Assembly: GCF_000284115.1 (NCBI RefSeq)
Contig: NC_017080.1
Location: 1,830,001 to 1,862,000 of the forward strand
Reading direction: 5' to 3'
DNA from: Phycisphaera mikurensis NBRC 102666
GTDB taxonomy: Bacteria > Planctomycetota > Phycisphaerae > Phycisphaerales > Phycisphaeraceae
DNA: 32,000 bases
The notes beneath the pieces were generated by a model. It was given only the letters and a program-made list of their open reading frames with translations, had not been told where the DNA came from and searched no databases. The first letter of the stretch is position 1. Every line of letters begins with the position of its first letter. The translations under genes were made by a program, and so were the position numbers. Shown piece after piece: positions 4,705 through 23,643 of the stretch.

Positions 4705-4814
4705 GAGCGAAGAAGCGAGGAAGCGGGGAAGCGAAGAAGTCAGCATGTCCTGACGAACGCTCCCTTCTCTCCTGCCTGACTTCTTCGCTTTCTCTCTTCT
4801 TCGCTTCCTTGCTT
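4705..4814 (+). repeat. Intercistronic GA-rich/TC-rich inverted repeat (IR-A) between the SPFH fusion gene and the HflC-like gene
   Basis: A perfect 15-bp stem, AAGCGAAGAAGTCAG (4729-4743) / CTGACTTCTTCGCTT (4776-4790), encloses a 32-nt loop. The outer 24 positions (4705-4728 vs 4791-4814) pair with only 2 mismatches if G-T (G-U) pairs are allowed. Confidence 0.8.
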
Positions 4815-7448: not shown

Positions 7449-8627
7449 ATGATGTCGAACCCCGCCCCCCCCCACATCGTCTGCCAGAAGCTGTCCAAGA
7501 CGTTCAAAGACTTCTGGATGCGGGACCGCGTCAAGGCGGTGGACGCGGTGGACCTGGAGGTCCGGCCCGGCGAGGTCTTCGGGCTGCTCGGGCCCAACGG
7601 CTCGGGCAAGTCGACCACCATCAAGATGATCCTCGGCCTGCTGCACCCGAGCTCCGGCCGGGTCCAGGTGCTCGGCCGCAGCCCGCGCGACACCGAGGCG
7701 AAGGAGCAGCTGGGCTACCTGCCCGAGGAGAGCTACCTCTACCGCTTCCTCTCCGCGCGGGAGACGCTGGAGTACTACGGCAAGCTGTTCGGGATCGACC
7801 GCCGCACGCGGCTCAACCGCATCGACATGCTGCTGGAGATGGTCGGCCTGGACAAGGTCCAGCGGCGGCCGATCGGCGAGTACTCCAAGGGCATGCAGCG
7901 GCGCATCGGTCTGGCCCAGGCGCTCATCAACGACCCCAAGCTGCTCGTCCTCGACGAGCCGACCACGGGCATGGACCCGATCGGCACGCGGCAGATCAAG
8001 GACCTCATCCTGCGGCTCAAGGAGAGCGGCAAGACGGTGCTGCTGTGCAGCCACCTGCTCGGCGACGTGGAGGACGTGACCGACCGCTGCGCCATCATGT
8101 TCGGCGGCCGGGTGCGGAAGGCCGGCACGATCGACGAGCTGCTCGCCCGCCAGGACGAGACGCAGATCGTGACCCACGCGTTGTCTTCGGAGGAAGAGGA
8201 GCAGGCCGTCACCGCGCTGGAGTCCCGCGGCCTCACCGACGTCTCGATCCGGCGCGGCCGCCAGAAGCTCGAGACGCTCTTCCTGGACATGGTCACCCAG
8301 GCCCAGGCCGAGGGCGTCGCCACCGCCGGCGCCGGCAACGCGGGCACCGTCGCCACCTTCCTCACCGAACGCCACGCCGACGCCGCGGACGCCAAGCCCG
8401 GCTCCTCCGCCACCGTCCTCGACGACCTCGTCCAGGACGAGCCCGAGGAGCCGGCCAAGCGGGAAGTCGTCGTCGAAGAGGTCAAGCCCCAGCCCGATGC
8501 CGCCGTCCTCTCCAACCTCGCCGAAGACAACCCGCGGACCGAGCCCGAAAAAGCCCCCGAACCTCCACGGTCCGCGGATCCCCCCAAGAAGCCCGCCGAC
8601 CGCTCCGTCCTCGACGATCTGCTTTGA
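7449..8627 (+). CDS. ABC transporter ATP-binding protein with ~110-aa acidic/Pro-rich C-terminal tail
   Basis: Walker A GPNGSGKST, Q-loop, signature-like YSKGMQRRIGLAQAL, Walker B LLVLDEPTTGMD and H-loop CSHLL. GGAGG lies 4-7 nt upstream of the ATGATG start. Confidence 0.93.
   Translation: MMSNPAPPHIVCQKLSKTFKDFWMRDRVKAVDAVDLEVRPGEVFGLLGPNGSGKSTTIKMILGLLHPSSGRVQVLGRSPRDTEAKEQLGYLPEESYLYRFLSARETLEYYGKLFGIDRRTRLNRIDMLLEMVGLDKVQRRPIGEYSKGMQRRIGLAQALINDPKLLVLDEPTTGMDPIGTRQIKDLILRLKESGKTVLLCSHLLGDVEDVTDRCAIMFGGRVRKAGTIDELLARQDETQIVTHALSSEEEEQAVTALESRGLTDVSIRRGRQKLETLFLDMVTQAQAEGVATAGAGNAGTVATFLTERHADAADAKPGSSATVLDDLVQDEPEEPAKREVVVEEVKPQPDAAVLSNLAEDNPRTEPEKAPEPPRSADPPKKPADRSVLDDLL
8532..8577. repeat. 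Copy E1 of the 46-nt element CCGCGGACCG-N26-CGGTCCGCGG, inside the 3' end of the ABC ATPase CDS
   Basis: Arms at 8532-8541 and 8568-8577 are perfect. The loop is exactly 26 nt. Confidence 0.85.
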
Positions 8628-10849: not shown

Positions 10850-13021
10850 ATGCAGCGTGACCGCTTGATCCAACTCGTCGCCGTCGCCGTCGCGGTCGTC
10901 GCCCTTGTGGGCGCCGGCCTGATGGTGCCGCGTGTCTCGGCGCAGCGCCGCGACCTGCAGCTCACCTACGACGTGGCCACCGCCGAGGGCGGCAAGCCGA
11001 CCTACGCCGTGCTCGCGGCCGGGCTGGGCAGCTTCAAGGGCCTCGCGGTCAACGCGCTGTGGTACCGGGCGGAGATGGAGAAGCGGGCGGGCCGCTACGC
11101 CGAGGCGAACAACCTCGCGGAGTGGATCACCGAGCTGCAGCCGCGCTTCCCCCAGGTCTGGGCGTTCCACAGCTGGAACCTCGCGTACAACATCTCGGTC
11201 GGCACCTACACCCCGCAGGAGCGCTGGGACTGGGTGCACAAGGGCATCACGCTGCTGCGCGACGAGGGCATCGCGTTCAACCCCAACGCGGTGCAGCTGT
11301 ACCGCGAGCTGGCGTGGCTGTGGTTCCACAAGGTCGGCACGTACAGCGACGACCTCAACTGGTACTACAAGAACCAGGTGGCGCAGGAGTGGCAGGAGCT
11401 GCTCGGCGGCCCGAACGACTCGATGACGCCCGAAGGCGTCCAACGCTTCCTCGACGAGATCGCCGGCGTCGCCGACCGCTACCTCGCCTTCCAGCGACCC
11501 GAGAAGGCGATCCGCGATGCCCTCGCCGCCCTCGCCGGGGGCAGCGATCCGGTCGACCTCGTCGCGGATGCGCTCCAAGACCTGCAGGAGTCGCCCGTGA
11601 TCCGGCTGGACCGCCGCCTCTCCGCGATGCGGGAGGCGCTGCTCGCGGACGGGCGGACGGCGGCGGCGGAGCAAATCGATCCGGTGCTGGCGGCCGTGCG
11701 GGAGGCGGTGGCGCGGGCGGAGCGGGACCCGGTCTCGGTGTTCCGCGGCGACGTGCCCGCCGCGGGCGCCGCGATCGATGCCCTCCGGGAAGCGGGCTTC
11801 GGCCTCGACGCGGAGGCGTTGCGGGCGCTGGGGCGCGTGCGGCTGTACGCGCGCTACGGCGGCCCCGACGCGGCACAGTGGATGCTGAGCCTGCCCGAGG
11901 CGGTGATCGGCGACGACGGCCGCCGGATGATCGGCCTGCTGACCGAGAACGACACGCCCGCCTTCGCGGCGTCGCTGGAGGCGCTGATGCCCTTCCTCCG
12001 CGCCAAGGTCCTGCTCCAGGCGTACCACATGGACCCGGCGTTCATGGCCGAGGTCGCCCGGCGCTACGGGCCCGCGGACTGGCGCCACCCGATGGCCCAC
12101 GCGCTGTATTGGTCGGCGCTGGGCGTGGAGAAGGCGCGGGACCTCCGCAACAACGAGAGCGTCGACTACATCAACCTCAAGCGGGTCAGCATCCACGCGA
12201 TCCAAAGCCTCGTGGACTTCGGGAGCGTCGCCTACAACCCGCTGCTGCCCGACGGCGAGCGGGTCGACTTCATGCCGGCGCCCGAGTTTATCGACTCCTA
12301 CGGCGCCGCCCTCGAAGAGGCGATGGCCGACGCCGATTCCGGAGAGTTCCGCAGGAACGTGCGGATGGAGAGCTTCGCCAGCGGGCACGAGAACTTTCTG
12401 CACAAGGCGATCATGCTCAACTACCTCTACGGCAGCGAGGACGCCGCCGCGCGGTACTACGAGCAGCTCCGCATCGAGTACGGGGACGCGCCGCACAACC
12501 TCCGGGACCGCCGCTACGAGCAGCCGCTCTCGGACCTCGTGTGGCAGTTCCTCAAGGACGACCTCGATTCGCCGTCGCAGACGACGATCCGCTACCTGCT
12601 CGACGGCATGCTCACCGAGCGGGCGTACGGCAACGGCCTGGTCTACGGCCGCTTCCGGATCTTCAACCAGGTGGTCGTCCGCGTGAAGGAGTTCTACGAC
12701 AAGTACCAGGAGGAGCGGGCTTACGAGACCGGCCTCGACCAGAAAGGCCGGCTGGAGCTGCCGCCCTTCGAGCAGGTGCTCGAGGACACGTTCACCAACT
12801 TCATGCAGGACCCCACCCGCGACTTGGGCTCTCGCGTCGCCGCCTACCGCAACGCCCCGGTCGTGCTCAACCAGCGGGCCTGGCCCCGTTTCATCGAGAA
12901 CGTCCGCGACCAGGTGCCCGCCGGGAACGACGCGACCCAGCTGTTCCCGCAGCCGCCGGGAACCGAGGACCCCGCCGTGAGCGGCGACAAGGCCGGCAGC
13001 AAGACGATCGAGCGGAAGTAG
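10850..13021 (+). CDS. Hypothetical N-terminally membrane-anchored helical-repeat protein (723 aa), family not recognised
   Basis: ORF 10850..13021(+). Single N-terminal TM (LIQLVAVAVAVVALVGAGLMV). The sequence is Trp/Tyr-rich and helical (ALWYRAEMEKRAGRYAEANNLAEWITELQPRFPQVWAFHSWNLAYNISV). Amino-acid composition is protein-like, unlike the Arg/Gly/Pro-rich shadow ORFs. It lies 50 nt after the permease. Confidence 0.7.
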   Translation: MQRDRLIQLVAVAVAVVALVGAGLMVPRVSAQRRDLQLTYDVATAEGGKPTYAVLAAGLGSFKGLAVNALWYRAEMEKRAGRYAEANNLAEWITELQPRFPQVWAFHSWNLAYNISVGTYTPQERWDWVHKGITLLRDEGIAFNPNAVQLYRELAWLWFHKVGTYSDDLNWYYKNQVAQEWQELLGGPNDSMTPEGVQRFLDEIAGVADRYLAFQRPEKAIRDALAALAGGSDPVDLVADALQDLQESPVIRLDRRLSAMREALLADGRTAAAEQIDPVLAAVREAVARAERDPVSVFRGDVPAAGAAIDALREAGFGLDAEALRALGRVRLYARYGGPDAAQWMLSLPEAVIGDDGRRMIGLLTENDTPAFAASLEALMPFLRAKVLLQAYHMDPAFMAEVARRYGPADWRHPMAHALYWSALGVEKARDLRNNESVDYINLKRVSIHAIQSLVDFGSVAYNPLLPDGERVDFMPAPEFIDSYGAALEEAMADADSGEFRRNVRMESFASGHENFLHKAIMLNYLYGSEDAAARYYEQLRIEYGDAPHNLRDRRYEQPLSDLVWQFLKDDLDSPSQTTIRYLLDGMLTERAYGNGLVYGRFRIFNQVVVRVKEFYDKYQEERAYETGLDQKGRLELPPFEQVLEDTFTNFMQDPTRDLGSRVAAYRNAPVVLNQRAWPRFIENVRDQVPAGNDATQLFPQPPGTEDPAVSGDKAGSKTIERK

Positions 13022-13038: not shown

Positions 13039-13084
13039 CCGCGGACCGTGCCGGTTCTCGGCCCGGAGCCCCGGCGGTCCGCGA
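13039..13084. repeat. Copy E2 of the 46-nt element, 18 nt after the stop of the 723-aa gene
   Basis: Arms at 13039-13048 and 13075-13084 (9 of 10 complementary). The loop is exactly 26 nt. Confidence 0.8.
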
Positions 13085-13131: not shown

Positions 13132-14730
13132 ATGCCTGCCCCCTCCGACTCCGTCCGCTTCGTCGACTGCAGCCTCCGCGACGGGCACCAGTCGCTGCTG
13201 GCGACGCGGATGAGCGGGTCTCAGGTCGAGGCGGTCCTGCCGCACCTCGCCCGGGCCGGGTACGAGCGGCTGGAGCTCTGGGGCGGCGCGGTGCCCGACG
13301 CGTCGCTTCGCTTCACGCACGAGGACCCCTTCGAGCGGCTCGACCGCGCCCGCGCCGCGCTCGACCTGCACGCCCCGCGCGACCGGCCGGTGCAGGTCCG
13401 CTCGCTGTGCCGCGGCCAGAACCTCTTCGGCTACAGCCCCTACCCCGACAACGTCGTGACGGCCTTCCTCAAGGAAGCGGTCCGCAGCGGGTCGGCGCCC
13501 GCCAACGCGGCCGACGCGGAAGCACCCGCTCGCCGCAACAAGCCGCACGGGGCCGGTGCCCACCGGATCCGCGTCTTCGACGCGCTCAACGACGCCCGCA
13601 ACCTCGTCACCGCCACGATGGCGACCAAGGCCTTTAACGGCGAGGTGGAGGCCGCCCTCTGCTACACGACCTCGCCGGTGCACACCCCCGAGGCGTTCTC
13701 CGCGTTCGCGGTCGCGGCCGTCGACGCGGGCGCCGACGCCCTCGCCATCAAGGACATGGCCGGCTTGCTCCACCCCGCCGACGTCGCGCCGCTGGTCGCT
13801 GCGCTGCGGGTCGCGGCGCCGGGGCTCGAGCTCACGCTGCACGTGCACTGCACCACCGGCCTGGGCGTGGCGGCCTGCGTCGCCGGCCTGCTCTGCGGGG
13901 TCGACTGCATCGACACCGGGCACGGCCCGCTGGCCGGCGGCAGCGCTCAGCCGCCGGTGGAGCTGATGTGCTGGTTCGCCGACCGGCTCGGTGTCCGCCA
14001 CGGCCTCGACGCCGGCACGTTCCCCGCCATCGACGCCGCCATGCGGGCCGCCCGGACCGAGCTCGCCCACGCCGACGGTGCCGCCGCGATCCCCTCTCCC
14101 TGGCCGCTGGAGCCGGGCGACGACGACCGTCGAGCGCTGGCGGAGGCGCTGGCGCTGCTCCGCACCGGCGAGCGGCCCGACGGCGACGCGGCCGTATGGA
14201 TCATCGACGAGGAGCTGATGCGGCCCCGCGGCTACCCGGCGGCCGACACCACGCACCTCGACAGCCAGATCCCCGGGGGGATGATCTCCAACCTCGAGAG
14301 CCAGCTGCGGGACCAGGGCAAGATCGAGCTGCTGCCGGAGATCCTCGAGGAGGTCCCGCGGGTGCGGGCCGCCGCGGGGTACCCGCCGCTGGTCACGCCG
14401 ACCAGCCAGATCGTCGGCAGCCAGGCCGCCTTCAACGTGATGCTCCAGGAGCCGTACAAGCAGGTGTCGATGGCCTTCCGCGACCTGCTCACCGGCCGCT
14501 ACGGGCGGCTGCCCGGCCCGGTCGACCCGGCGGTGCTGAAGATCGCGGCCGGCGACACCAAGCCCTTCCGCGAGCGGCCGGCGGACCTGATCCCCGACGC
14601 CAGCTTCAATGCGCTGCTCCAACGCCACGGCGGGCGGATCCGCAGCCACCGCGACCTCCTCCTGCTGCTGCTCTTCCCGCAGCCTGCCGGCAAGTTCCTG
14701 GAGCGGCGGGCGGCCGCAAGCGCGACCTGA
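13132..14730 (+). CDS. Carboxyltransferase of the oxaloacetate decarboxylase alpha / pyruvate carboxylase subunit B / transcarboxylase 5S type, without a biotinyl domain
   Basis: This is the C-terminal 532 aa of ORF 11059..14730(+), starting at ATG 13132 (MPAPSDSVRFVDCSLRDGHQSLLATRM). Motifs: RVFDALND, AIKDMAGLLHP (carbamylated-Lys motif), LHVHCTTGLG (HxH), and the conserved C-terminal region QIPGGMISNLESQLR...VTPTSQIVGSQA. No AMKM biotin motif is present. Confidence 0.85.
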   Translation: MPAPSDSVRFVDCSLRDGHQSLLATRMSGSQVEAVLPHLARAGYERLELWGGAVPDASLRFTHEDPFERLDRARAALDLHAPRDRPVQVRSLCRGQNLFGYSPYPDNVVTAFLKEAVRSGSAPANAADAEAPARRNKPHGAGAHRIRVFDALNDARNLVTATMATKAFNGEVEAALCYTTSPVHTPEAFSAFAVAAVDAGADALAIKDMAGLLHPADVAPLVAALRVAAPGLELTLHVHCTTGLGVAACVAGLLCGVDCIDTGHGPLAGGSAQPPVELMCWFADRLGVRHGLDAGTFPAIDAAMRAARTELAHADGAAAIPSPWPLEPGDDDRRALAEALALLRTGERPDGDAAVWIIDEELMRPRGYPAADTTHLDSQIPGGMISNLESQLRDQGKIELLPEILEEVPRVRAAAGYPPLVTPTSQIVGSQAAFNVMLQEPYKQVSMAFRDLLTGRYGRLPGPVDPAVLKIAAGDTKPFRERPADLIPDASFNALLQRHGGRIRSHRDLLLLLLFPQPAGKFLERRAAASAT

Positions 14731-14780
14731 TGGGCTTCCCGGCCGCCGACCCGGCGGGCTGCCCCCTCCGATGCTGCCGC

Positions 14781-15165
14781 CGCGCGTCGGCCGGAGGCCG
14801 AGCCACCTGCGGCCCCGCGGCCCCCGGCCATCCGCGGCCTTCTCCTCGTCGGTCCCCGGCTCCGCTCTGAGTGCGAGGGTTGGCGGCCCGCGCCGTGCGT
14901 CGGCCGAAGGCCGAGCCGGTGGCTCACCGCCTCCGGCGGTGTAGGTCGGGCGGAGCCCGAGCGGTTCTTGGAGGCGCGGACCCCATAGCGCCTGGGGCGG
15001 TGAGCCACCGGCGGCCCTGCGGGCCCGGGTTCCCCACGGTCCGCGGCTTGATCCTCGTCGATTGTCGGCCTCGGATCGAGCGCGCGGCTTGGGGGCCACG
15101 CCGTCTGTCGGCCGAGGGCCGAGACGGCGGACCCGCCAGTGGCTGTCGGCCGATCGCCCCTGACC
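14781..15165. repeat. Upstream array (about 2.5 units, partly degenerate) of the composite structured repeat that also follows the EEP gene
   Basis: Layout: module-B tail at 14781-14805; a full module B at 14806-14917; a hairpin module at 14918-15009; a diverged module B from 15010 on. In the hairpin module the left arm GGTGGCTCACCGCCTCCGGCGGTGT is intact and the right arm is degenerate (4 mismatches). At 14805/14806 the hairpin module is precisely absent (gccgagcc|acctgcgg). Confidence 0.85.
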
Positions 15166-15290
15166 CAGTCGCCCCGATCGCCGCGGAGCCGATGCGGGCC
15201 GCGGCCCGCGGGCGGGAGCCGCGTCTGCGCGGGTAGCGTGCGTCTCCTCAGGAGCGTCGGTCCACCCGCGGATCGACGTCGGCGCCGCGG

Positions 15291-16535
15291 TTGCGGCGGG
15301 CCTTTGACGGCAGCGTCGCATCCGAAGCCCCCTGCACCCGCCGCCGGGTGCTCCCTTCTTCCGAGCCCCACGTGCCCTTCTACAAGCCGCTCAAGCACGC
15401 GCCCGCCGCCGAGCGGAAGCGCACGATCCGGGGCATCCAGCGGTTGCGGGCGCAGCTCGCCGAGGCCGGGTTCCCGGGGAAGAAGACGGCCGAGACGCTG
15501 ATCCTCGGCACCTGGAACCTCCGGAACTTCGACGACGACCGCTTCGGCCACGGCCCGCGGACCGACGAGTCCCTGCACTACCTCGCGGAGATCGTCGCCC
15601 GCTTCGACGCGCTCGCCGTGCAGGAGATCGGTGAGGACCTCGGGCCGCTCCAGCGCCTCCTCGCCCTCGCCGGCCCGCAGTACGACTACCTGCTCACCGA
15701 CGTCACCCACAGCGGGCTCGGCGGCAACCGCGAGCGGCTCGGCTTCGTCTACGACCGCCACAAGGTGAGGTTCACCGGCGTCAGCGGCGAGATCGTCCTG
15801 CCCGACCGCCTGCTCATCGGCCGCGACGGGGGGGCCGGGGGCGCCGGGGGCCGCCAGTTCGCCCGCACCCCCTTCGGGGCCGCGTTCCACAGCGGCTGGT
15901 TCAAATTCGTCTTCAGCACCGTCCACGTCTACTTCGGCGCCGCCGGCCGCAACAGCCCGCAGTACGAGCGGCGGGTGCAGGAGATCGAAGCCGTCGCCGG
16001 CTACCTCGCCGCCGAGGCGGGCTCCAGCGAAGCCAACCACGTCCTCGTCGGCGACTTCAACATCGTCGCACCCGGGAGCGACGGCTTCAACGCCCTGGAG
16101 CGTGCCGGCTTCACCGCCGTCCAGAACCGCCGCGGCAGCAACGCCGACCAGACGAAGTTCTACGACCAGATCAGCTTCCTCAGCAAGCGGAACGAGCTGC
16201 TCCTCCGCGACCCCGAGCGGGACGACCGCGTCTTCCAGTTTTTCGACAGCGTTTACCGCGACGGCGACTTCCGGATGCACCGCTCCACGATGAAGAAGCT
16301 TCTGCGGGCGAAGATCGAAGCCGCCGCCGCCGAAGCCAGGGACGGCCGCACCAAGCGGATCCGCACCCGCGCCGCGAGGCGGGTCGAAAGCCTCACCGCC
16401 CTGGCCGCCGACGACGCCGCGCTGGAGGCGTACTACCCCACGTGGCGGACCTTCCAGATGAGCGACCACCTCCCCCTGTGGGTCGAGATCAAGATCGATT
16501 TCTCTGACGCGTACCTGGAGAAGCTGCTCGGGTAG
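15291..16535 (+). CDS. Endonuclease/exonuclease/phosphatase (EEP, DNase I-like fold) family protein
   Basis: EEP motifs in order: LILGTWNLRNF, LAVQEIGED, GNRERLGFVYD, VHVYFG, VLVGDFNIV, MSDHLPLWVEIKIDF. The start is uncertain: TTG 15291 (longest), GTG 15348 or GTG 15372 (VPFYKPLKH). No N-terminal signal peptide is evident. Confidence 0.85.
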   Translation: MRRAFDGSVASEAPCTRRRVLPSSEPHVPFYKPLKHAPAAERKRTIRGIQRLRAQLAEAGFPGKKTAETLILGTWNLRNFDDDRFGHGPRTDESLHYLAEIVARFDALAVQEIGEDLGPLQRLLALAGPQYDYLLTDVTHSGLGGNRERLGFVYDRHKVRFTGVSGEIVLPDRLLIGRDGGAGGAGGRQFARTPFGAAFHSGWFKFVFSTVHVYFGAAGRNSPQYERRVQEIEAVAGYLAAEAGSSEANHVLVGDFNIVAPGSDGFNALERAGFTAVQNRRGSNADQTKFYDQISFLSKRNELLLRDPERDDRVFQFFDSVYRDGDFRMHRSTMKKLLRAKIEAAAAEARDGRTKRIRTRAARRVESLTALAADDAALEAYYPTWRTFQMSDHLPLWVEIKIDFSDAYLEKLLG

Positions 16536-17320
16536 GGGGCCGCCGTCCGCGGCCTTCTCTTCGTCGGTCCCCGGCTCCGCGTCGAGTGCGAGGCTTGGCG
16601 GCCCGCGCCGTGCGTCGGCCGGAGGCCGAGCCGGTGGCTCACCGCCTCCGGCGGTGTAGGTCGGGCGCAGCCCGAGCGGTTTTTAAGGCGCGGACTCCAC
16701 ACCGCCGGAGGCGGTGAGCCACCTGCGGCCCCCGACCGTCCGCGGCCTTCTCCTCGTCGGTCCCCAGCTCAGCGTTGAGCGCGAGGCTTGGCGGCCCAGG
16801 CCGTGCGTCGGCCGAAGGCCGAGCCGGTGGCTCACCGCCTCCGGCGGTGTAGGTCTGGCGCAGCCCGAGCGGTTTTTGAGGCGCGGACTCCACACCGCCG
16901 GAGGCGGTGAGCCACCTGCGGCCCCCGACCGTCCGCGGCCTTCTCCTCGTCGGTCCCCAGCTCAGCGTTGAGCGCGAGGCTTGGCGGCCCAGGCCCTGCG
17001 TCGGCCGGAGGCCGAGCAGGTGGCTCACCGCCTCCGGCGGTGTAGGTCGGGCGGAGCCCGAGCGGTTTTTGAGGCGCGGACCCCACACCGCCGGAGGCGG
17101 TGAGCCACCTGCGGCCCTGCGGGCCCCAACCGTCCGCGGCCTTTCCCCTCGTCGGTCCCCGGCTCCGCGTCGAGTGCGAGGGTTGGCGGCCTACGCCGTG
17201 CGTCGGCCGGAGGCCGAGCCGGTGGCTCACCGCCTCCGGCGGTGTAGGTCGGGCGCAGCCCGAGCGGTTCTTGGAGGCGCGGATCCCACACCGCCGGAGG
17301 CGGTGAGCCACCTGCGGGCT
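16536..17320. repeat. Tandem array of 4 units (periods 193, 193, 202 nt) of a composite structured repeat, starting immediately after the EEP stop codon
   Basis: Each unit is a ~102-111-nt module B (ctgcggccc..gtccgcggccttctcctcgtcggtcccc...gtcggccgaaggccgagcc) plus a 91-92-nt hairpin module. The hairpin has perfect 25-bp arms GGTGGCTCACCGCCTCCGGCGGTGT / ACACCGCCGGAGGCGGTGAGCCACC around a 41-42-nt loop. Hairpins lie at 16633-16723, 16826-16916, 17019-17109 and 17221-17312. Confidence 0.9.
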
Positions 17321-17460
17321 CGCGGAACGTCGCGGTGCCGGGTTGGGAGCACCCGGGTGCTCAGCGGTCAGAGAAACATCGTCGGGGCTGCCTCCTGCCA
17401 AGGTGCGGCCACCCCCGGGCGTCCCGCGCCTCACGCCGCGGGGGCGCTGCGTGGAGGCAC

Positions 17461-17961
17461 TCAGGCGCTCAGCGTTGCCTGGGCCAGCAGGATCGCGACG
17501 GTGTTCGCGACGTTGAGGCTGCGCACGTTGCCGCGGCCGTGCAGCGGGCCGGGCATCGGCACGTGCACGCGGCGGTCTGGCCAGCGGTCGTGCCAGGTGG
17601 CCGGGAGGCCGCTGTTCTCGTTGCCGAAGATCAGCACGTCGCCGCGCGTGTACGCGGCCTCGTCGAAGCGGTGGCTCACGCCATCGAGGTGCTTGCTCAC
17701 GAGCCAAGGCCGGCGGCCGCCGAGCCACGCCAGGAAGGCGTCGTCGTCGGCGTGCTGCGTGAGGTCCAGCAGCGGCCAGTAGTCCAGCCCGGCCCGCTGC
17801 ACCTTGTGCTCGTCGATGGCGAACTTCATCGGGTGGATGAGGTGCAACCGGGCCCCGAAGGCGACGCAGGTGCGGGCGATGTTGCCCGTGTTCTGCGGGA
17901 TCGCCGGGTGGTACTGCACCGCGTGGAAGCGGGCCGGCGGCTCATGCGTGGGCCCGCTCAT
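17461..17961 (-). CDS. trmL: tRNA (cytidine/uridine-2'-O-)-methyltransferase TrmL (SpoU/TrmH family)
   Basis: This is the C-terminal 166 aa of ORF 17461..18180(-), from ATG 17961 (MSGPTHEPPARFHAVQYHPAIPQNTGNIARTC...RAGLDYW...LIFGNENSGLP...RSLNVANTVAILLAQA). The start overlaps the trpG stop (ATGA). Confidence 0.88.
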   Translation of the reverse strand: MSGPTHEPPARFHAVQYHPAIPQNTGNIARTCVAFGARLHLIHPMKFAIDEHKVQRAGLDYWPLLDLTQHADDDAFLAWLGGRRPWLVSKHLDGVSHRFDEAAYTRGDVLIFGNENSGLPATWHDRWPDRRVHVPMPGPLHGRGNVRSLNVANTVAILLAQATLSA

Positions 17962-18647
17962 GCCGCGGACGGCGGCGTCGAGACGCCGGCCACCGCCGCG
18001 GTCCGCGGTCGGGGCAAGCCCAGGAAGTTCGCGAGCATGGCCGGCCCTTCCGGCGTCATGAAGCTCTCGGGGTGGAACTGCACGCCCTCCAGCGGAGCCG
18101 GACCGAACACGCCCGCCCGCGCCCGCAGCCCCATCACCACCCGCGTCGGCTCGCGGTCCCCGGGCAGCAGGTCGTCGCACCAGGCCGAGACCTCGAAGCG
18201 GTCCGCGTCCACGGTCGCCGCGTCGACCACCAGCGAGTGGTAGCGCATCGCCGTCATCGGCTGCGGGAGGCCGCGGAACAGCGTGGCCCCGTCGTGCGAG
18301 ATCTCGCTCGTCTTCCCGTGCATCAGCAGCCGGTGCCGGCCCACCGTCATGCCGTGCCGCTCGCCGATCGCCTGGTGGCCCAGGCAGACCCCGAGCAGCG
18401 GGACCTTGCCGGCGAGGCGCCCGATGACCTCGCCGCTGACCCCGGCCTCCTTGGGGGTGCAGGGGCCCGGCGAGACGATCACGTGCGTCGGCTCCAGCGC
18501 CTCCGCCTGATCGGCGGTGATCGCGTCGTTGCGGACGACGCGGAGGGGGAGCTCGCCGGGGTCGCGGCCCTCGGCCACGAGCAGCTCGCCGATCCGCTGC
18601 ACGAGGTTCCAGGTGAAGCTGTCGTAGTTGTCGATCAGGAGGATCAC
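17958..18647 (-). CDS. trpG: Glutamine amidotransferase component II of anthranilate / aminodeoxychorismate synthase (TrpG/PabA)
   Basis: ORF 17958..18776(-). The likely start is GTG at 18647, giving (M)ILLIDNYDSFTWNLVQ. The catalytic GVCLGHQ and the HPES motif (VQFHPESFMTPEG) are present. TrpG versus PabA cannot be distinguished from sequence alone. Confidence 0.88.
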   Translation of the reverse strand: MILLIDNYDSFTWNLVQRIGELLVAEGRDPGELPLRVVRNDAITADQAEALEPTHVIVSPGPCTPKEAGVSGEVIGRLAGKVPLLGVCLGHQAIGERHGMTVGRHRLLMHGKTSEISHDGATLFRGLPQPMTAMRYHSLVVDAATVDADRFEVSAWCDDLLPGDREPTRVVMGLRARAGVFGPAPLEGVQFHPESFMTPEGPAMLANFLGLPRPRTAAVAGVSTPPSAA

Positions 18648-19276: not shown

Positions 19277-19322
19277 CCGCGGACCGTCGCCCCTTGCGGG
19301 CGGGACGGCCCCCGGTCCGCGG
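19277..19322. repeat. Copy E3 of the 46-nt element, in the secA leader 55 nt after the small-ORF stop
   Basis: Arms at 19277-19286 and 19313-19322 are perfect. The loop is exactly 26 nt. An extra right-arm-like half site, CCGGTCCGC, lies at 19254-19262. Confidence 0.85.
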
Positions 19323-23597: not shown

Positions 23598-23643
23598 CCG
23601 CGGACCGCGGCTTGCTGAAAGCCGAAGAGGCCGCGGTCCGCGG
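23598..23643. terminator. Hairpin between convergent secA and the DUF4332 gene; copy E4 of the 46-nt CCGCGGACCG-N26-CGGTCCGCGG element
   Basis: It starts 2 nt after the secA stop. Arms are at 23598-23607 and 23634-23643, extended by CGGC/GCCG to a 14-bp stem. No U-run follows, so it is not a canonical intrinsic terminator. Confidence 0.45.

What the first reader, a model, noticed from the sequence alone, without database searches (positions are those of the whole stretch)
14781..17320. EEP-fold nuclease gene bracketed on both sides by same-orientation arrays of a hairpin-containing repeat (REPtron-like layout with a non-RAYT enzyme)
Seen: the only gene between the two arrays is an apparently catalytically intact, signal-less EEP protein. 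The downstream array starts at the first base after its stop codon, and the upstream array ends ~130-200 nt before its start.

Established: bacterial REP hairpins cluster around their cognate RAYT (IS200/IS605-like) transposase genes (REPtrons). EEP-fold endonucleases are the DNA-nicking enzymes of non-LTR retroelements, and many members of the fold are nucleases.

Inference: this could be a nuclease with its cognate structured-repeat substrates, responsible for spreading, processing or resolving the repeats. Equally, the repeats may simply accumulate in permissive spacers and act as terminators or insulators around an unrelated gene. I know of no described EEP-repeat partnership of this kind.
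Basis: partly seen in the sequence, partly recalled or inferred. Interest (0 to 1): 0.7.

Follow-up and report, generated by a model that had tools for sequence, protein, structure and literature searches.

The report
Repeat arrays flanking a DNase-like gene
Two arrays of a 193-base, hairpin-rich repeat do flank a DNase I-like gene in Phycisphaera mikurensis, but they look like an ordinary species-specific extragenic repeat cluster (REP/BIME type) next to an unrelated, widely conserved gene, not an enzyme sitting with its own substrates.

Summary
A 193-nt unit is repeated 4.0 times in tandem just after the stop codon of a 387-aa EEP gene (PSMK_15680, Phycisphaera mikurensis). One full and two partial units lie upstream in the same orientation.

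The nuclease-with-cognate-repeats reading is not supported:
- The protein belongs to a highly conserved stand-alone family (57-65% identity across many phyla; closest solved fold DNase I).
- Seven orthologue loci in other organisms have different neighbours and no arrays. One carries a single unrelated 47-nt flanking repeat.
- The repeat was found nowhere outside this organism.
- A close relative has a dispersed intergenic repeat with the same 13-nt core hairpin and a GTAG-tagged stem-loop, five copies in 21.6 kb, and no EEP gene in that stretch.

Each unit is a mosaic: a 31-bp-arm hairpin made of two inverted small palindromes, an internal 5'-GTAG-tagged stem-loop followed by a T-run, a further small stem-loop, and half of a genus-wide 46-nt hairpin. 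This is the architecture of REP/BIME clusters, whose known mobilising enzymes are HUH tyrosine transposases.

Interest is low.

The parts
13132..14730 (+). Upstream gene: carboxyltransferase (oxaloacetate decarboxylase alpha / pyruvate carboxylase B type). The upstream repeats lie in its 3' spacer.
   Evidence: Pfam HMGL-like + PYC_OADA; identical to the P. mikurensis protein P0121, 532 aa.
14765..14809 (+). Partial unit 'up0'. It has the small stem-loop TCGGCC-GGA-GGCCGA and the unit tail but lacks the ~92-nt long hairpin. The junction lies at a 5-nt direct repeat (GAGCC) that brackets the hairpin in full units.
   Evidence: Alignment A1; repeat families D2/D3; direct reading.
14828..15029 (+). 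Full unit 'up1', same orientation as the downstream array. It is 90-92% identical to the downstream units. The inner part of its right arm is degraded by uncompensated changes.
15030..15130 (+). Partial, more diverged unit 'up2'. It carries the first ~100 nt of a unit and stops before the long hairpin.
   Evidence: (families D2, D3).
15131..15371 (+). Unique 241-nt leader or promoter region of the EEP gene, with no repeat homology.
15372..16535 (+). EEP-fold, DNase I-like gene PSMK_15680 (387 aa, GTG start). Catalytic residues are intact. It has a helical Lys/Arg-rich insertion at residues ~297-363. GC3 is 0.94 (measured on the stop-to-stop frame 15237-16535), similar to the neighbouring genes.
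16543..17323 (+). Downstream tandem array of four units (16543-16735, 16736-16928, 16929-17130, 17131-17323), 92-96% identical to one another. It fills most of the convergent spacer up to the SpoU-type methylase gene.
16630..16726 (+). Example of the long hairpin, one per full unit. Two 31-nt inverted arms are separated by 35 nt. Each arm holds its own small palindrome, CACCGCC-TCC-GGCGGTG. The tetranucleotide CCGA sits 5' of the foot. Other copies: 14915-15012, 16823-16919, 17016-17112, 17218-17315.
16656..16684 (+). Example of the internal 5'-GTAG-tagged stem-loop (GTAG-G-TCGGGC-GCA-GCCCGA) followed by GCGG + T-run, inside the loop of the long hairpin. It is REP-like and terminator-like on the + strand. 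Other copies start at 14941, 16849, 17042 and 17244.
17461..17961 (-). Downstream convergent gene: SpoU-type RNA methyltransferase. The array ends 137 nt from its stop codon.

Best explanation
The arrays are a species-specific cluster of extragenic palindromic repeats of the REP/BIME kind.

Each 193-nt unit is a mosaic of motifs typical of this genus's intergenic DNA:
- a pair of inverted small palindromes that together form a 31-bp-arm hairpin;
- a 5'-GTAG-tagged 6-bp stem-loop with a T-run in its loop;
- another small stem-loop;
- a half-site of a genus-wide 46-nt hairpin.

The unit was amplified in tandem, by slippage or unequal recombination, in two neighbouring spacers. The two arrays are kept similar by copying between them. 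This step is inferred.

The gene in between is an unrelated, widely conserved cytoplasmic DNase I-like enzyme, and its position between the arrays is incidental. If an enzyme spread the hairpins, the expected one is an HUH tyrosine transposase (RAYT or TnpA-Y1 type) encoded elsewhere, not the EEP protein. This is inferred from what is known of such repeats.

Any present-day role is most likely the generic one of REP clusters: ending or insulating transcription and protecting mRNA 3' ends. The terminator-like orientation matches both upstream + strand genes.
For: Shown here:
- Unit anatomy, a tandem mosaic of inverted palindromes plus linkers. [quoted passage not shown]
- A GTAG tetranucleotide lies 5' of a short stem-loop in all five full units. 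The canonical REP foot is 5' GT[AG]G (PMC6006769).
- The closest relative sampled is L028 (neighbour gene 81% identical). It has five copies in 21.6 kb of a repeat of at least 165 nt. All five are intergenic. The repeat has the same 13-nt core CCGCC-TCC-GGCGG and a GTAG-tagged stem-loop. One copy lies downstream of the same carboxyltransferase gene. There is no EEP gene in the locus.
- Seven EEP orthologue loci have no arrays, no GTAG-tagged hairpins at the gene and no conserved neighbours.
- The EEP family is 57-65% identical across phyla, with 187 clusters at E<=1e-30.
- The repeat is absent from viral contigs, 185,579 species genomes, JGI metagenomes and plasmids.
- The EEP gene has host-like GC3 of 0.94, and the window holds housekeeping genes with no transposase or integrase among the ORFs scanned.
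- T-run stem-loops point the same way as both upstream genes.
Against: - The copy number and distribution of the repeat in the P. mikurensis chromosome are unknown, because the source genome could not be reached. 'Dispersed REP family' is therefore inferred from a relative, not shown.
- In the 32-kb window the repeat occurs only in the two spacers next to the EEP gene.
- No EEP orthologue above 65% identity exists in the protein database, although six relatives supply the neighbouring gene at 79-85%. Gene and repeat are thus both peculiar to this species.
- The nearest orthologue (L020) is also flanked by a 47-nt direct repeat, unrelated in sequence.
- The small palindromes in the arms carry GTAG/GTGG on the 3' side, not the canonical 5' side.
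- No RAYT could be looked for.
- Only five very similar copies exist, so there is no covariation evidence for any structure.
Confidence: 0.6

Rival explanations
1. One reading: the EEP nuclease and the hairpin arrays form a functional pair, a REPtron-like unit with a non-RAYT enzyme. The protein would nick, process or spread the repeats.
For: - Within the window the repeat is confined to the two spacers flanking the gene.
- Gene and repeat are both unique to this species among the sampled relatives.
- The nearest orthologue is also flanked by a direct repeat and other hairpin repeats.
- The enzyme is catalytically intact and cytoplasmic.
Against: - Six of seven orthologue loci have no flanking repeats at all.
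- Very high cross-phylum conservation argues for a common substrate.
- A relative has an abundant repeat with the same core hairpin and no EEP gene in the locus examined.
- The fold is closest to DNase I, TDP2 and deadenylases, not to hairpin-specific ssDNA enzymes.
- Adjacency of two occupied spacers has a chance probability of about 0.17-0.29.
Confidence: 0.05
2. The arrays are selected cis-elements for this gene. The upstream array blocks read-through from the carboxyltransferase gene. The structured array starting about 10 nt after the stop codon limits expression, or defines the 3' end, of a potentially dangerous cytoplasmic DNase.
For: - Terminator-like stem-loop plus T-run in three of five units, pointing the same way as both + strand genes.
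- Stable structure starts a few nucleotides after the stop codon.
Against: - No orthologue elsewhere has comparable elements.
- The T-run lies inside the loop of a 31-bp hairpin, an odd place for a terminator.
- Four tandem copies are more than termination needs.
- No expression data are available.
Confidence: 0.15
3. The EEP gene, absent from close relatives, was inserted by horizontal transfer or rearrangement into a pre-existing repeat cluster. This split the cluster into two same-orientation halves.
For: - No close orthologue exists in the genus.
- In three of four relatives the carboxyltransferase gene is followed by a convergent gene of 639-644 aa. Two of these are annotated as pyruvate:ferredoxin oxidoreductase; the third has no family hit on record. 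So this locus is rearranged in P. mikurensis.
- A relative has a repeat downstream of the same gene.
- Both arrays have the same orientation.
Against: - The two halves do not join in register. The upstream array stops at about unit position 105 and the downstream one starts at position 1.
- The gene's GC3 is fully host-like.
- No integrase, tRNA target or direct-repeat scars were seen other than the arrays themselves.
Confidence: 0.12
4. The arrays encode tandem copies of a structured non-coding RNA.
For: Very stable predicted fold on both strands, z about -6.
Against: - No Rfam match, even at E<=1.
- No promoter-like sites.
- The fold is equally good on both strands, as expected for a DNA palindrome.
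- No homologues outside the species.
- No covariation.
Confidence: 0.03

Closest known systems
REP clusters / BIMEs (bacterial interspersed mosaic elements) and the GTAG-tagged REP superfamily (PMC3733652)
   Same: - Short GC-rich stem-loops (6-7 bp stems, 3-nt loops).
- Inverted pairs 20-100 bp apart that can form a larger hairpin.
- Pairs reiterated in tandem together with linker DNA.
- Extragenic position at gene 3' ends.
- A GTAG tetranucleotide 5' of one stem-loop per unit.
- Species-specific sequence.
- Such families are already reported in Planctomycetes.
   Different: - Dispersal and copy number in the genome are unknown.
- The palindromes in the arms carry GTAG/GTGG on the non-canonical 3' side.
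- The unit is long (193 nt).
- No RAYT has been identified.
REPtron (RAYT gene flanked by its REPs)
   Same: A single gene with hairpin repeats on both sides.
   Different: - The gene encodes an EEP-fold phosphodiesterase, not an HUH/Y1 transposase.
- Orthologues elsewhere are not flanked by repeats.
- The arrays are tandem mosaics in the same orientation.
Class 3 TnpA-Y1 genes of Planctomycetes and Acidobacteria, with flanking structures bearing a 5' CnGA foot (PMC6006769)
   Same: The long hairpin is preceded by CCGA in all five units. The class is found mainly in Planctomycetes, and its structures can reach hundreds of copies.
   Different: - No such transposase gene is in the window.
- A CnGA match at one position has about a 2% chance probability.
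- The published structures are described as weak, whereas this hairpin is near-perfect.
DNase I family of EEP-fold nucleases
   Same: Best profile match to solved structures (E = 3e-4) and best Foldseek match (E = 2e-12). All catalytic residues are conserved.
   Different: - About 17% identity.
- Cytoplasmic, with an N-terminal helical extension and a ~65-residue three-helix insertion.
- Bacterial stand-alone family of unknown substrate.
MITEs
   Same: The long hairpin has terminal inverted repeats. One partial unit lacks it exactly between 5-nt direct repeats (GAGCC), which looks like an empty site or an excision.
   Different: - The direct repeat is part of the arm itself, so deletion by slippage explains it equally well.
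- No parent insertion sequence is known.
- No dispersed copies have been seen.

Membership tests
REPtron | Central gene encodes a RAYT (HUH/Y1 tyrosine transposase, PF01797-like). | tested here: not met
   Only PF03372 is hit. The fold is EEP and closest to DNase I.
REPtron | Orthologues of the gene in other genomes are likewise flanked by their own REPs. | tested here: not met
   Seven orthologue loci were examined. There are no arrays and no tagged hairpins at the gene. One locus has an unrelated 47-nt direct repeat.
REPtron | The flanking hairpins belong to a family dispersed in the same genome. | not testable with these tools
   The source chromosome is absent from the searchable collections. 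The translated-repeat search found nothing.
GTAG-tagged REP superfamily | Short stem-loop (5-13 bp stem, 2-20 nt loop). | tested here: met
   Four small stem-loops per unit with 6-7 bp stems and 3-nt loops.
GTAG-tagged REP superfamily | Unpaired GT[AG]G at the 5' foot of the stem-loop. | tested here: inconclusive
   Met for the internal stem-loop, GTAG-G-TCGGGC-GCA-GCCCGA, in all five units. The palindromes in the arms have GTAG/GTGG on the 3' side. The five units are one lineage, so this is one observation.
GTAG-tagged REP superfamily | Tens to thousands of copies per genome, mostly extragenic. | not testable with these tools
   Only the 32-kb window is readable. A relative shows five intergenic copies of a related element in 21.6 kb.
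BIME-type cluster | Mosaic of inverted REP pairs and conserved linkers, reiterated in tandem in a spacer. | tested here: met
BIME-type cluster | Binding by IHF, gyrase or Pol I, or an effect on mRNA stability. | not testable with these tools
   Needs experiments.
DNase I-like EEP nuclease | EEP fold with the conserved Asn, Glu, His, Asp-x-Asn, Asp and Asp-His catalytic set. | tested here: met
   N49, E85, H185, D228, N230, D265, D365 and H366 are invariant. AlphaFold model pLDDT 85. DNase I is the best hit.
Non-LTR retroelement endonuclease | EEP endonuclease joined to, or next to, a reverse transcriptase. | tested here: not met
   Single-domain 387-aa protein. Neighbouring genes are housekeeping genes.
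Integron cassette array / attC cluster | Imperfect hairpins with R''(RYYYAAC)...R'(GTTRRRY) cores and extrahelical bases, plus an IntI integrase nearby. | tested here: not met
   No R''/R' pairs on either strand. The arms pair almost perfectly. No integrase among the ORFs scanned.
CRISPR array | Short repeats separated by unique spacers. | tested here: not met
   The whole 193-nt unit is repeated at 92-96% identity, with no variable spacers.
Known RNA families (Rfam 15) | Match to a covariance model. | tested here: not met
   No match in the arrays at gathering score or at E<=1.

The most novel reading that the evidence does not exclude
A conserved cytoplasmic DNase I-like enzyme has been recruited in Planctomycetota as the processing or mobilising nuclease of hairpin repeats. 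This would be a second, non-HUH route to REP-like elements. It would explain why gene and arrays are both unique to this species, and why the nearest orthologue is also bracketed by repeats.
Probability: 0.04. Interest if true: 0.75.

Novelty: new member of a known kind. Interest (0 to 1): 0.2.

Why it matters
If the partnership were real, it would be a new class of enzyme-repeat system. The evidence points the other way, so the practical value is modest:
- It documents a REP/BIME-like mosaic repeat in Phycisphaerae.
- It shows that the genus carries several families of conserved extragenic hairpins.
- It flags a large, very conserved and uncharacterised DNase I-like family. In three of the seven orthologue loci from other organisms (not this window) the gene sits beside DNA-damage genes, which may be a better lead than the repeats.

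Tried and rejected
Searches that led nowhere:
- **Census in species genomes.** The arm pattern gave 15 single chance hits in unrelated taxa and none in P. mikurensis.
- **Metagenome scan with both arm ends.** It returned two contigs carrying an unrelated hairpin that shares only the 14-nt ends.
- **Viral contigs and plasmids.** One chance hit and no hit, respectively.
- **Census through spurious ORFs.** A chimera of the open frames of the repeat from both strands was searched against 5.8 billion proteins, with no hit.
- **Look-up of the gene's own contig.** Only a 1646-nt Logan contig came back. It breaks inside the repeats on both sides, which the local copies alone explain.
- **Empty-site analysis through the upstream gene's orthologues.** Synteny is not conserved, so no clean empty site exists.
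- **Covariation test of the hairpin.** The copies are too similar.
- **Literature.** Nothing found on repeats in P. mikurensis. The species is not in the TnpA-Y1 supplementary tables held as text.

Readings considered and rejected: attC/integron; CRISPR; a known ncRNA; a defence system (PADLOC, no hit); a recently transferred island (host-like GC3).
Full report
**Source and gene.** The window comes from Phycisphaera mikurensis NBRC 102666. The ORF 15372-16535 (+) translates exactly to PSMK_15680, a 387-aa protein of the endonuclease/exonuclease/phosphatase (EEP) family. The window is 72% G+C. The other ORFs scanned are housekeeping genes: SPFH proteins, an ABC transporter, a carboxyltransferase, a SpoU methylase, a glutamine amidotransferase, RNase PH, LptF/G and TrpA. 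SecA is recognised only from its ORF translation. No transposase or integrase was seen among the ORFs scanned.

- Tandem Repeats Finder reports 16543-17317, period 193, 4.0 copies, 92% matches.
- The repeat finder adds an upstream unit at 14828-15020 in the same orientation. With gaps allowed, the five units are 90-96% identical.
- Two partial units also lie upstream.
- The 25-nt arm occurs nine times exactly, against none expected, and only in the two spacers flanking the gene.
- No other long repeat family occurs in the window.
- Two corrections. The real start is the GTG at 15372, so the upstream repeats end about 240 nt before the gene. The downstream array starts 3-8 nt after the stop codon.

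**Anatomy of the unit**. In 5' to 3' order:
- a roughly 60-nt segment that begins with CCGTCCGCGG;
- a small stem-loop, TCGGCC-GGA-GGCCGA;
- the tetranucleotide CCGA;
- a long hairpin with 31-nt arms and a 35-nt loop.

Each arm holds its own palindrome, CACCGCC-TCC-GGCGGTG. The loop holds GTAG-G-TCGGGC-GCA-GCCCGA followed by GCGG and a T-run, which the terminator scan picks up on the + strand. One upstream partial unit lacks the long hairpin exactly between two GAGCC direct repeats. This could be slippage across a palindrome or an unfilled site. The fold is equally stable on both strands, as expected for a DNA palindrome. The five copies are too alike to give covariation.

**The protein.**
- Pfam gives only PF03372.
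- A profile of 38 homologues finds DNase I as the best solved relative (E = 3e-4).
- An AlphaFold model (pLDDT 85) matches human DNase I best (E = 2e-12), then TDP2, CNOT6L and Nocturnin.
- All catalytic residues are invariant.
- There is a three-helix insertion at residues ~297-363 and no signal peptide.
- The family is strikingly conserved. The 120 best hits are 56-65% identical over the full length. They come from Desulfatibacillum, Agarivorans, Microbulbifer, several Flavobacteriia, Calditrichota, Acidobacteriota and Planctomycetota. There are 187 clusters at E<=1e-30 among 50%-identity representatives.
- PADLOC and NCBIfam give nothing specific.

**Do orthologues carry repeats?** Seven loci from other organisms were read.
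- Their neighbours differ in every case.
- None has a tandem array.
- None has a GTAG/GTGG-tagged hairpin beside the gene.
- The exception is the nearest orthologue, L020, a Planctomycetota MAG at 65% identity. A 47-nt direct repeat (94% identical) lies 223 nt upstream and 265 nt downstream of its gene. That 7-kb contig also holds two other hairpin repeat families. The sequences are unrelated to the P. mikurensis unit. A contig with three repeat families in 7 kb makes a chance bracket plausible.

**Is the repeat found elsewhere?** No.
- Arm patterns gave one chance hit in viral contigs.
- They gave 15 single chance hits in 185,579 species genomes, none of them P. mikurensis, which shows the source genome is not in that collection.
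- They gave nothing in plasmids.
- In metagenomes they gave only an unrelated hairpin sharing the 14-nt arm ends.
- A protein-space census with the open frames of the repeat also found nothing.
- The only reachable copy of the gene is a 1646-nt Logan contig that breaks inside the repeats.

**Close relatives.** Orthologues of the upstream carboxyltransferase exist at 79-85% identity in six other assemblies. Four of these loci were read.
- None contains an EEP gene or the 193-nt unit.
- No EEP homologue above 65% identity exists in the protein database, so the gene seems absent from these relatives.
- The closest well-assembled relative, L028, has five intergenic copies in 21.6 kb of a repeat of at least 165 nt (92% mean column identity). 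It contains the same 13-nt core CCGCC-TCC-GGCGG as the P. mikurensis arms. It also has a canonical GTAG-GGCAGGTC-TTC-GACCTGCC stem-loop. One copy lies downstream of the same carboxyltransferase gene.
- The relative's element is not in the P. mikurensis window. Each species therefore has its own family built on shared hairpin motifs, as is usual for REP-type repeats.

**Comparison with what is known.** Published surveys describe REPs as 5-13 bp stem-loops tagged by GT[AG]G. [quoted passage not shown] They are present in Planctomycetes and associated with RAYT transposases (PMC3733652; PMC6006769). The unit fits the cluster architecture and has one canonically tagged stem-loop. The arm palindromes are tagged on the wrong side, and genome-wide abundance is untested. 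I therefore call it REP/BIME-like rather than a proven member. The CCGA before the long hairpin matches the CnGA foot reported for class 3 TnpA-Y1 genes of Planctomycetes, but a single tetranucleotide is weak evidence.

**Verdict.**
- The layout is real.
- It is best explained as a lineage-specific extragenic repeat cluster that expanded in two adjacent spacers, beside a conserved DNase I-like gene with an independent function (confidence about 0.6).
- Adjacency of two occupied spacers among about twelve is expected by chance with probability about 0.17.
- The partnership reading keeps about 5%. It rests on three weak points: the local restriction, the shared species-specificity, and the L020 repeat.
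- A one-line BLAST against the full chromosome would settle most of this.

Noticed in passing
window 8532-8577, 13039-13084, 17963-18008, 19277-19322, 23598-23643; also L028 (6 copies), L029 (2-3), L030 (1): A genus-wide hairpin of fixed length: CCGCGGAC(C/G)G - 26 variable nt - C(C/G)GTCCGCGG, 46 nt in all but one copy (47 nt), at gene ends and in spacers. The 10-mer occurs 16 times in the window against 2.25 expected. One copy overlaps the 3' end of the amidotransferase ORF. The 193-nt unit begins with the right half-site. Conserved ends with a variable centre of constant length suggest a protein-binding or processing site, not a plain terminator.
   Followed up: partly
L028 1830-2010, 3850-4030, 7520-7700, 12100-12340, 14560-14740: A close relative (1.34-Mb MAG contig, ERZ25039505) has a dispersed repeat of at least 165 nt, five intergenic copies in 21.6 kb at 92% mean column identity. 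It has the core hairpin CCGCC-TCC-GGCGG and a canonical GTAG-tagged stem-loop. At 12100-12340 two copies face each other between inverted ends ACACGACAACGCGG / CCGCGTTGTCGTGT, which looks MITE-like.
   Followed up: partly
L020 4717-4763 and 6420-6466; 3816-3861 and 4876-4921; 6308-6414: The nearest EEP orthologue (Planctomycetota MAG) is bracketed by a 47-nt direct repeat (94% identical). It has a perfect 44-nt hairpin repeat (GGGGACTGTCCCGATTTTCGCGCAGCGAAAATGGGACTGTCCCC) 65 nt upstream of its start, and a third hairpin family downstream. All are unrelated in sequence to the P. mikurensis unit.
   Followed up: partly
L024 3005-5647; L025 6260-9139; L027 4808-7202: In three of the seven orthologue loci from other organisms, the EEP gene sits beside DNA-damage genes. 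These are a DnaE2-like polymerase (divergent), CinA-LigT-RecA (downstream) and UmuC-UmuD-LexA (downstream). This hints that the family is a repair or SOS-linked nuclease.
   Followed up: no
window 15372-16535: The EEP gene appears to be an orphan within its genus. The best non-self hit is 65% identical, whereas the neighbouring carboxyltransferase has orthologues at 79-85% in six relatives. Yet the gene's GC3 (0.94) is fully host-like.
   Followed up: partly
window 4706-4813: A long hairpin with 38-nt purine-rich and pyrimidine-rich arms (84% complementary, 32-nt loop) lies between two SPFH-domain genes. It gives weak chance-level matches to plant miRNA precursor models.
   Followed up: no
L018 5021-5125; L019 8856-8941: Two metagenome contigs carry an 86-105-nt hairpin that shares only the 14-nt arm ends GGTGGCTCACCGCC / GGCGGTGAGCCACC with the P. 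mikurensis repeat. In both it lies just upstream of a gene, next to a conserved GAGCGTTTCTGTAA and a ribosome-binding site, like a 5' leader element. There is no Rfam match.
   Followed up: partly
window 14790-14809 versus 16620-16730: One upstream partial unit lacks the long hairpin precisely between two GAGCC direct repeats. At the third base pair of the hairpin foot, three units have a C/T mismatch, one has A-T and one has C-G. This is the only hint of compensatory change.
   Followed up: partly
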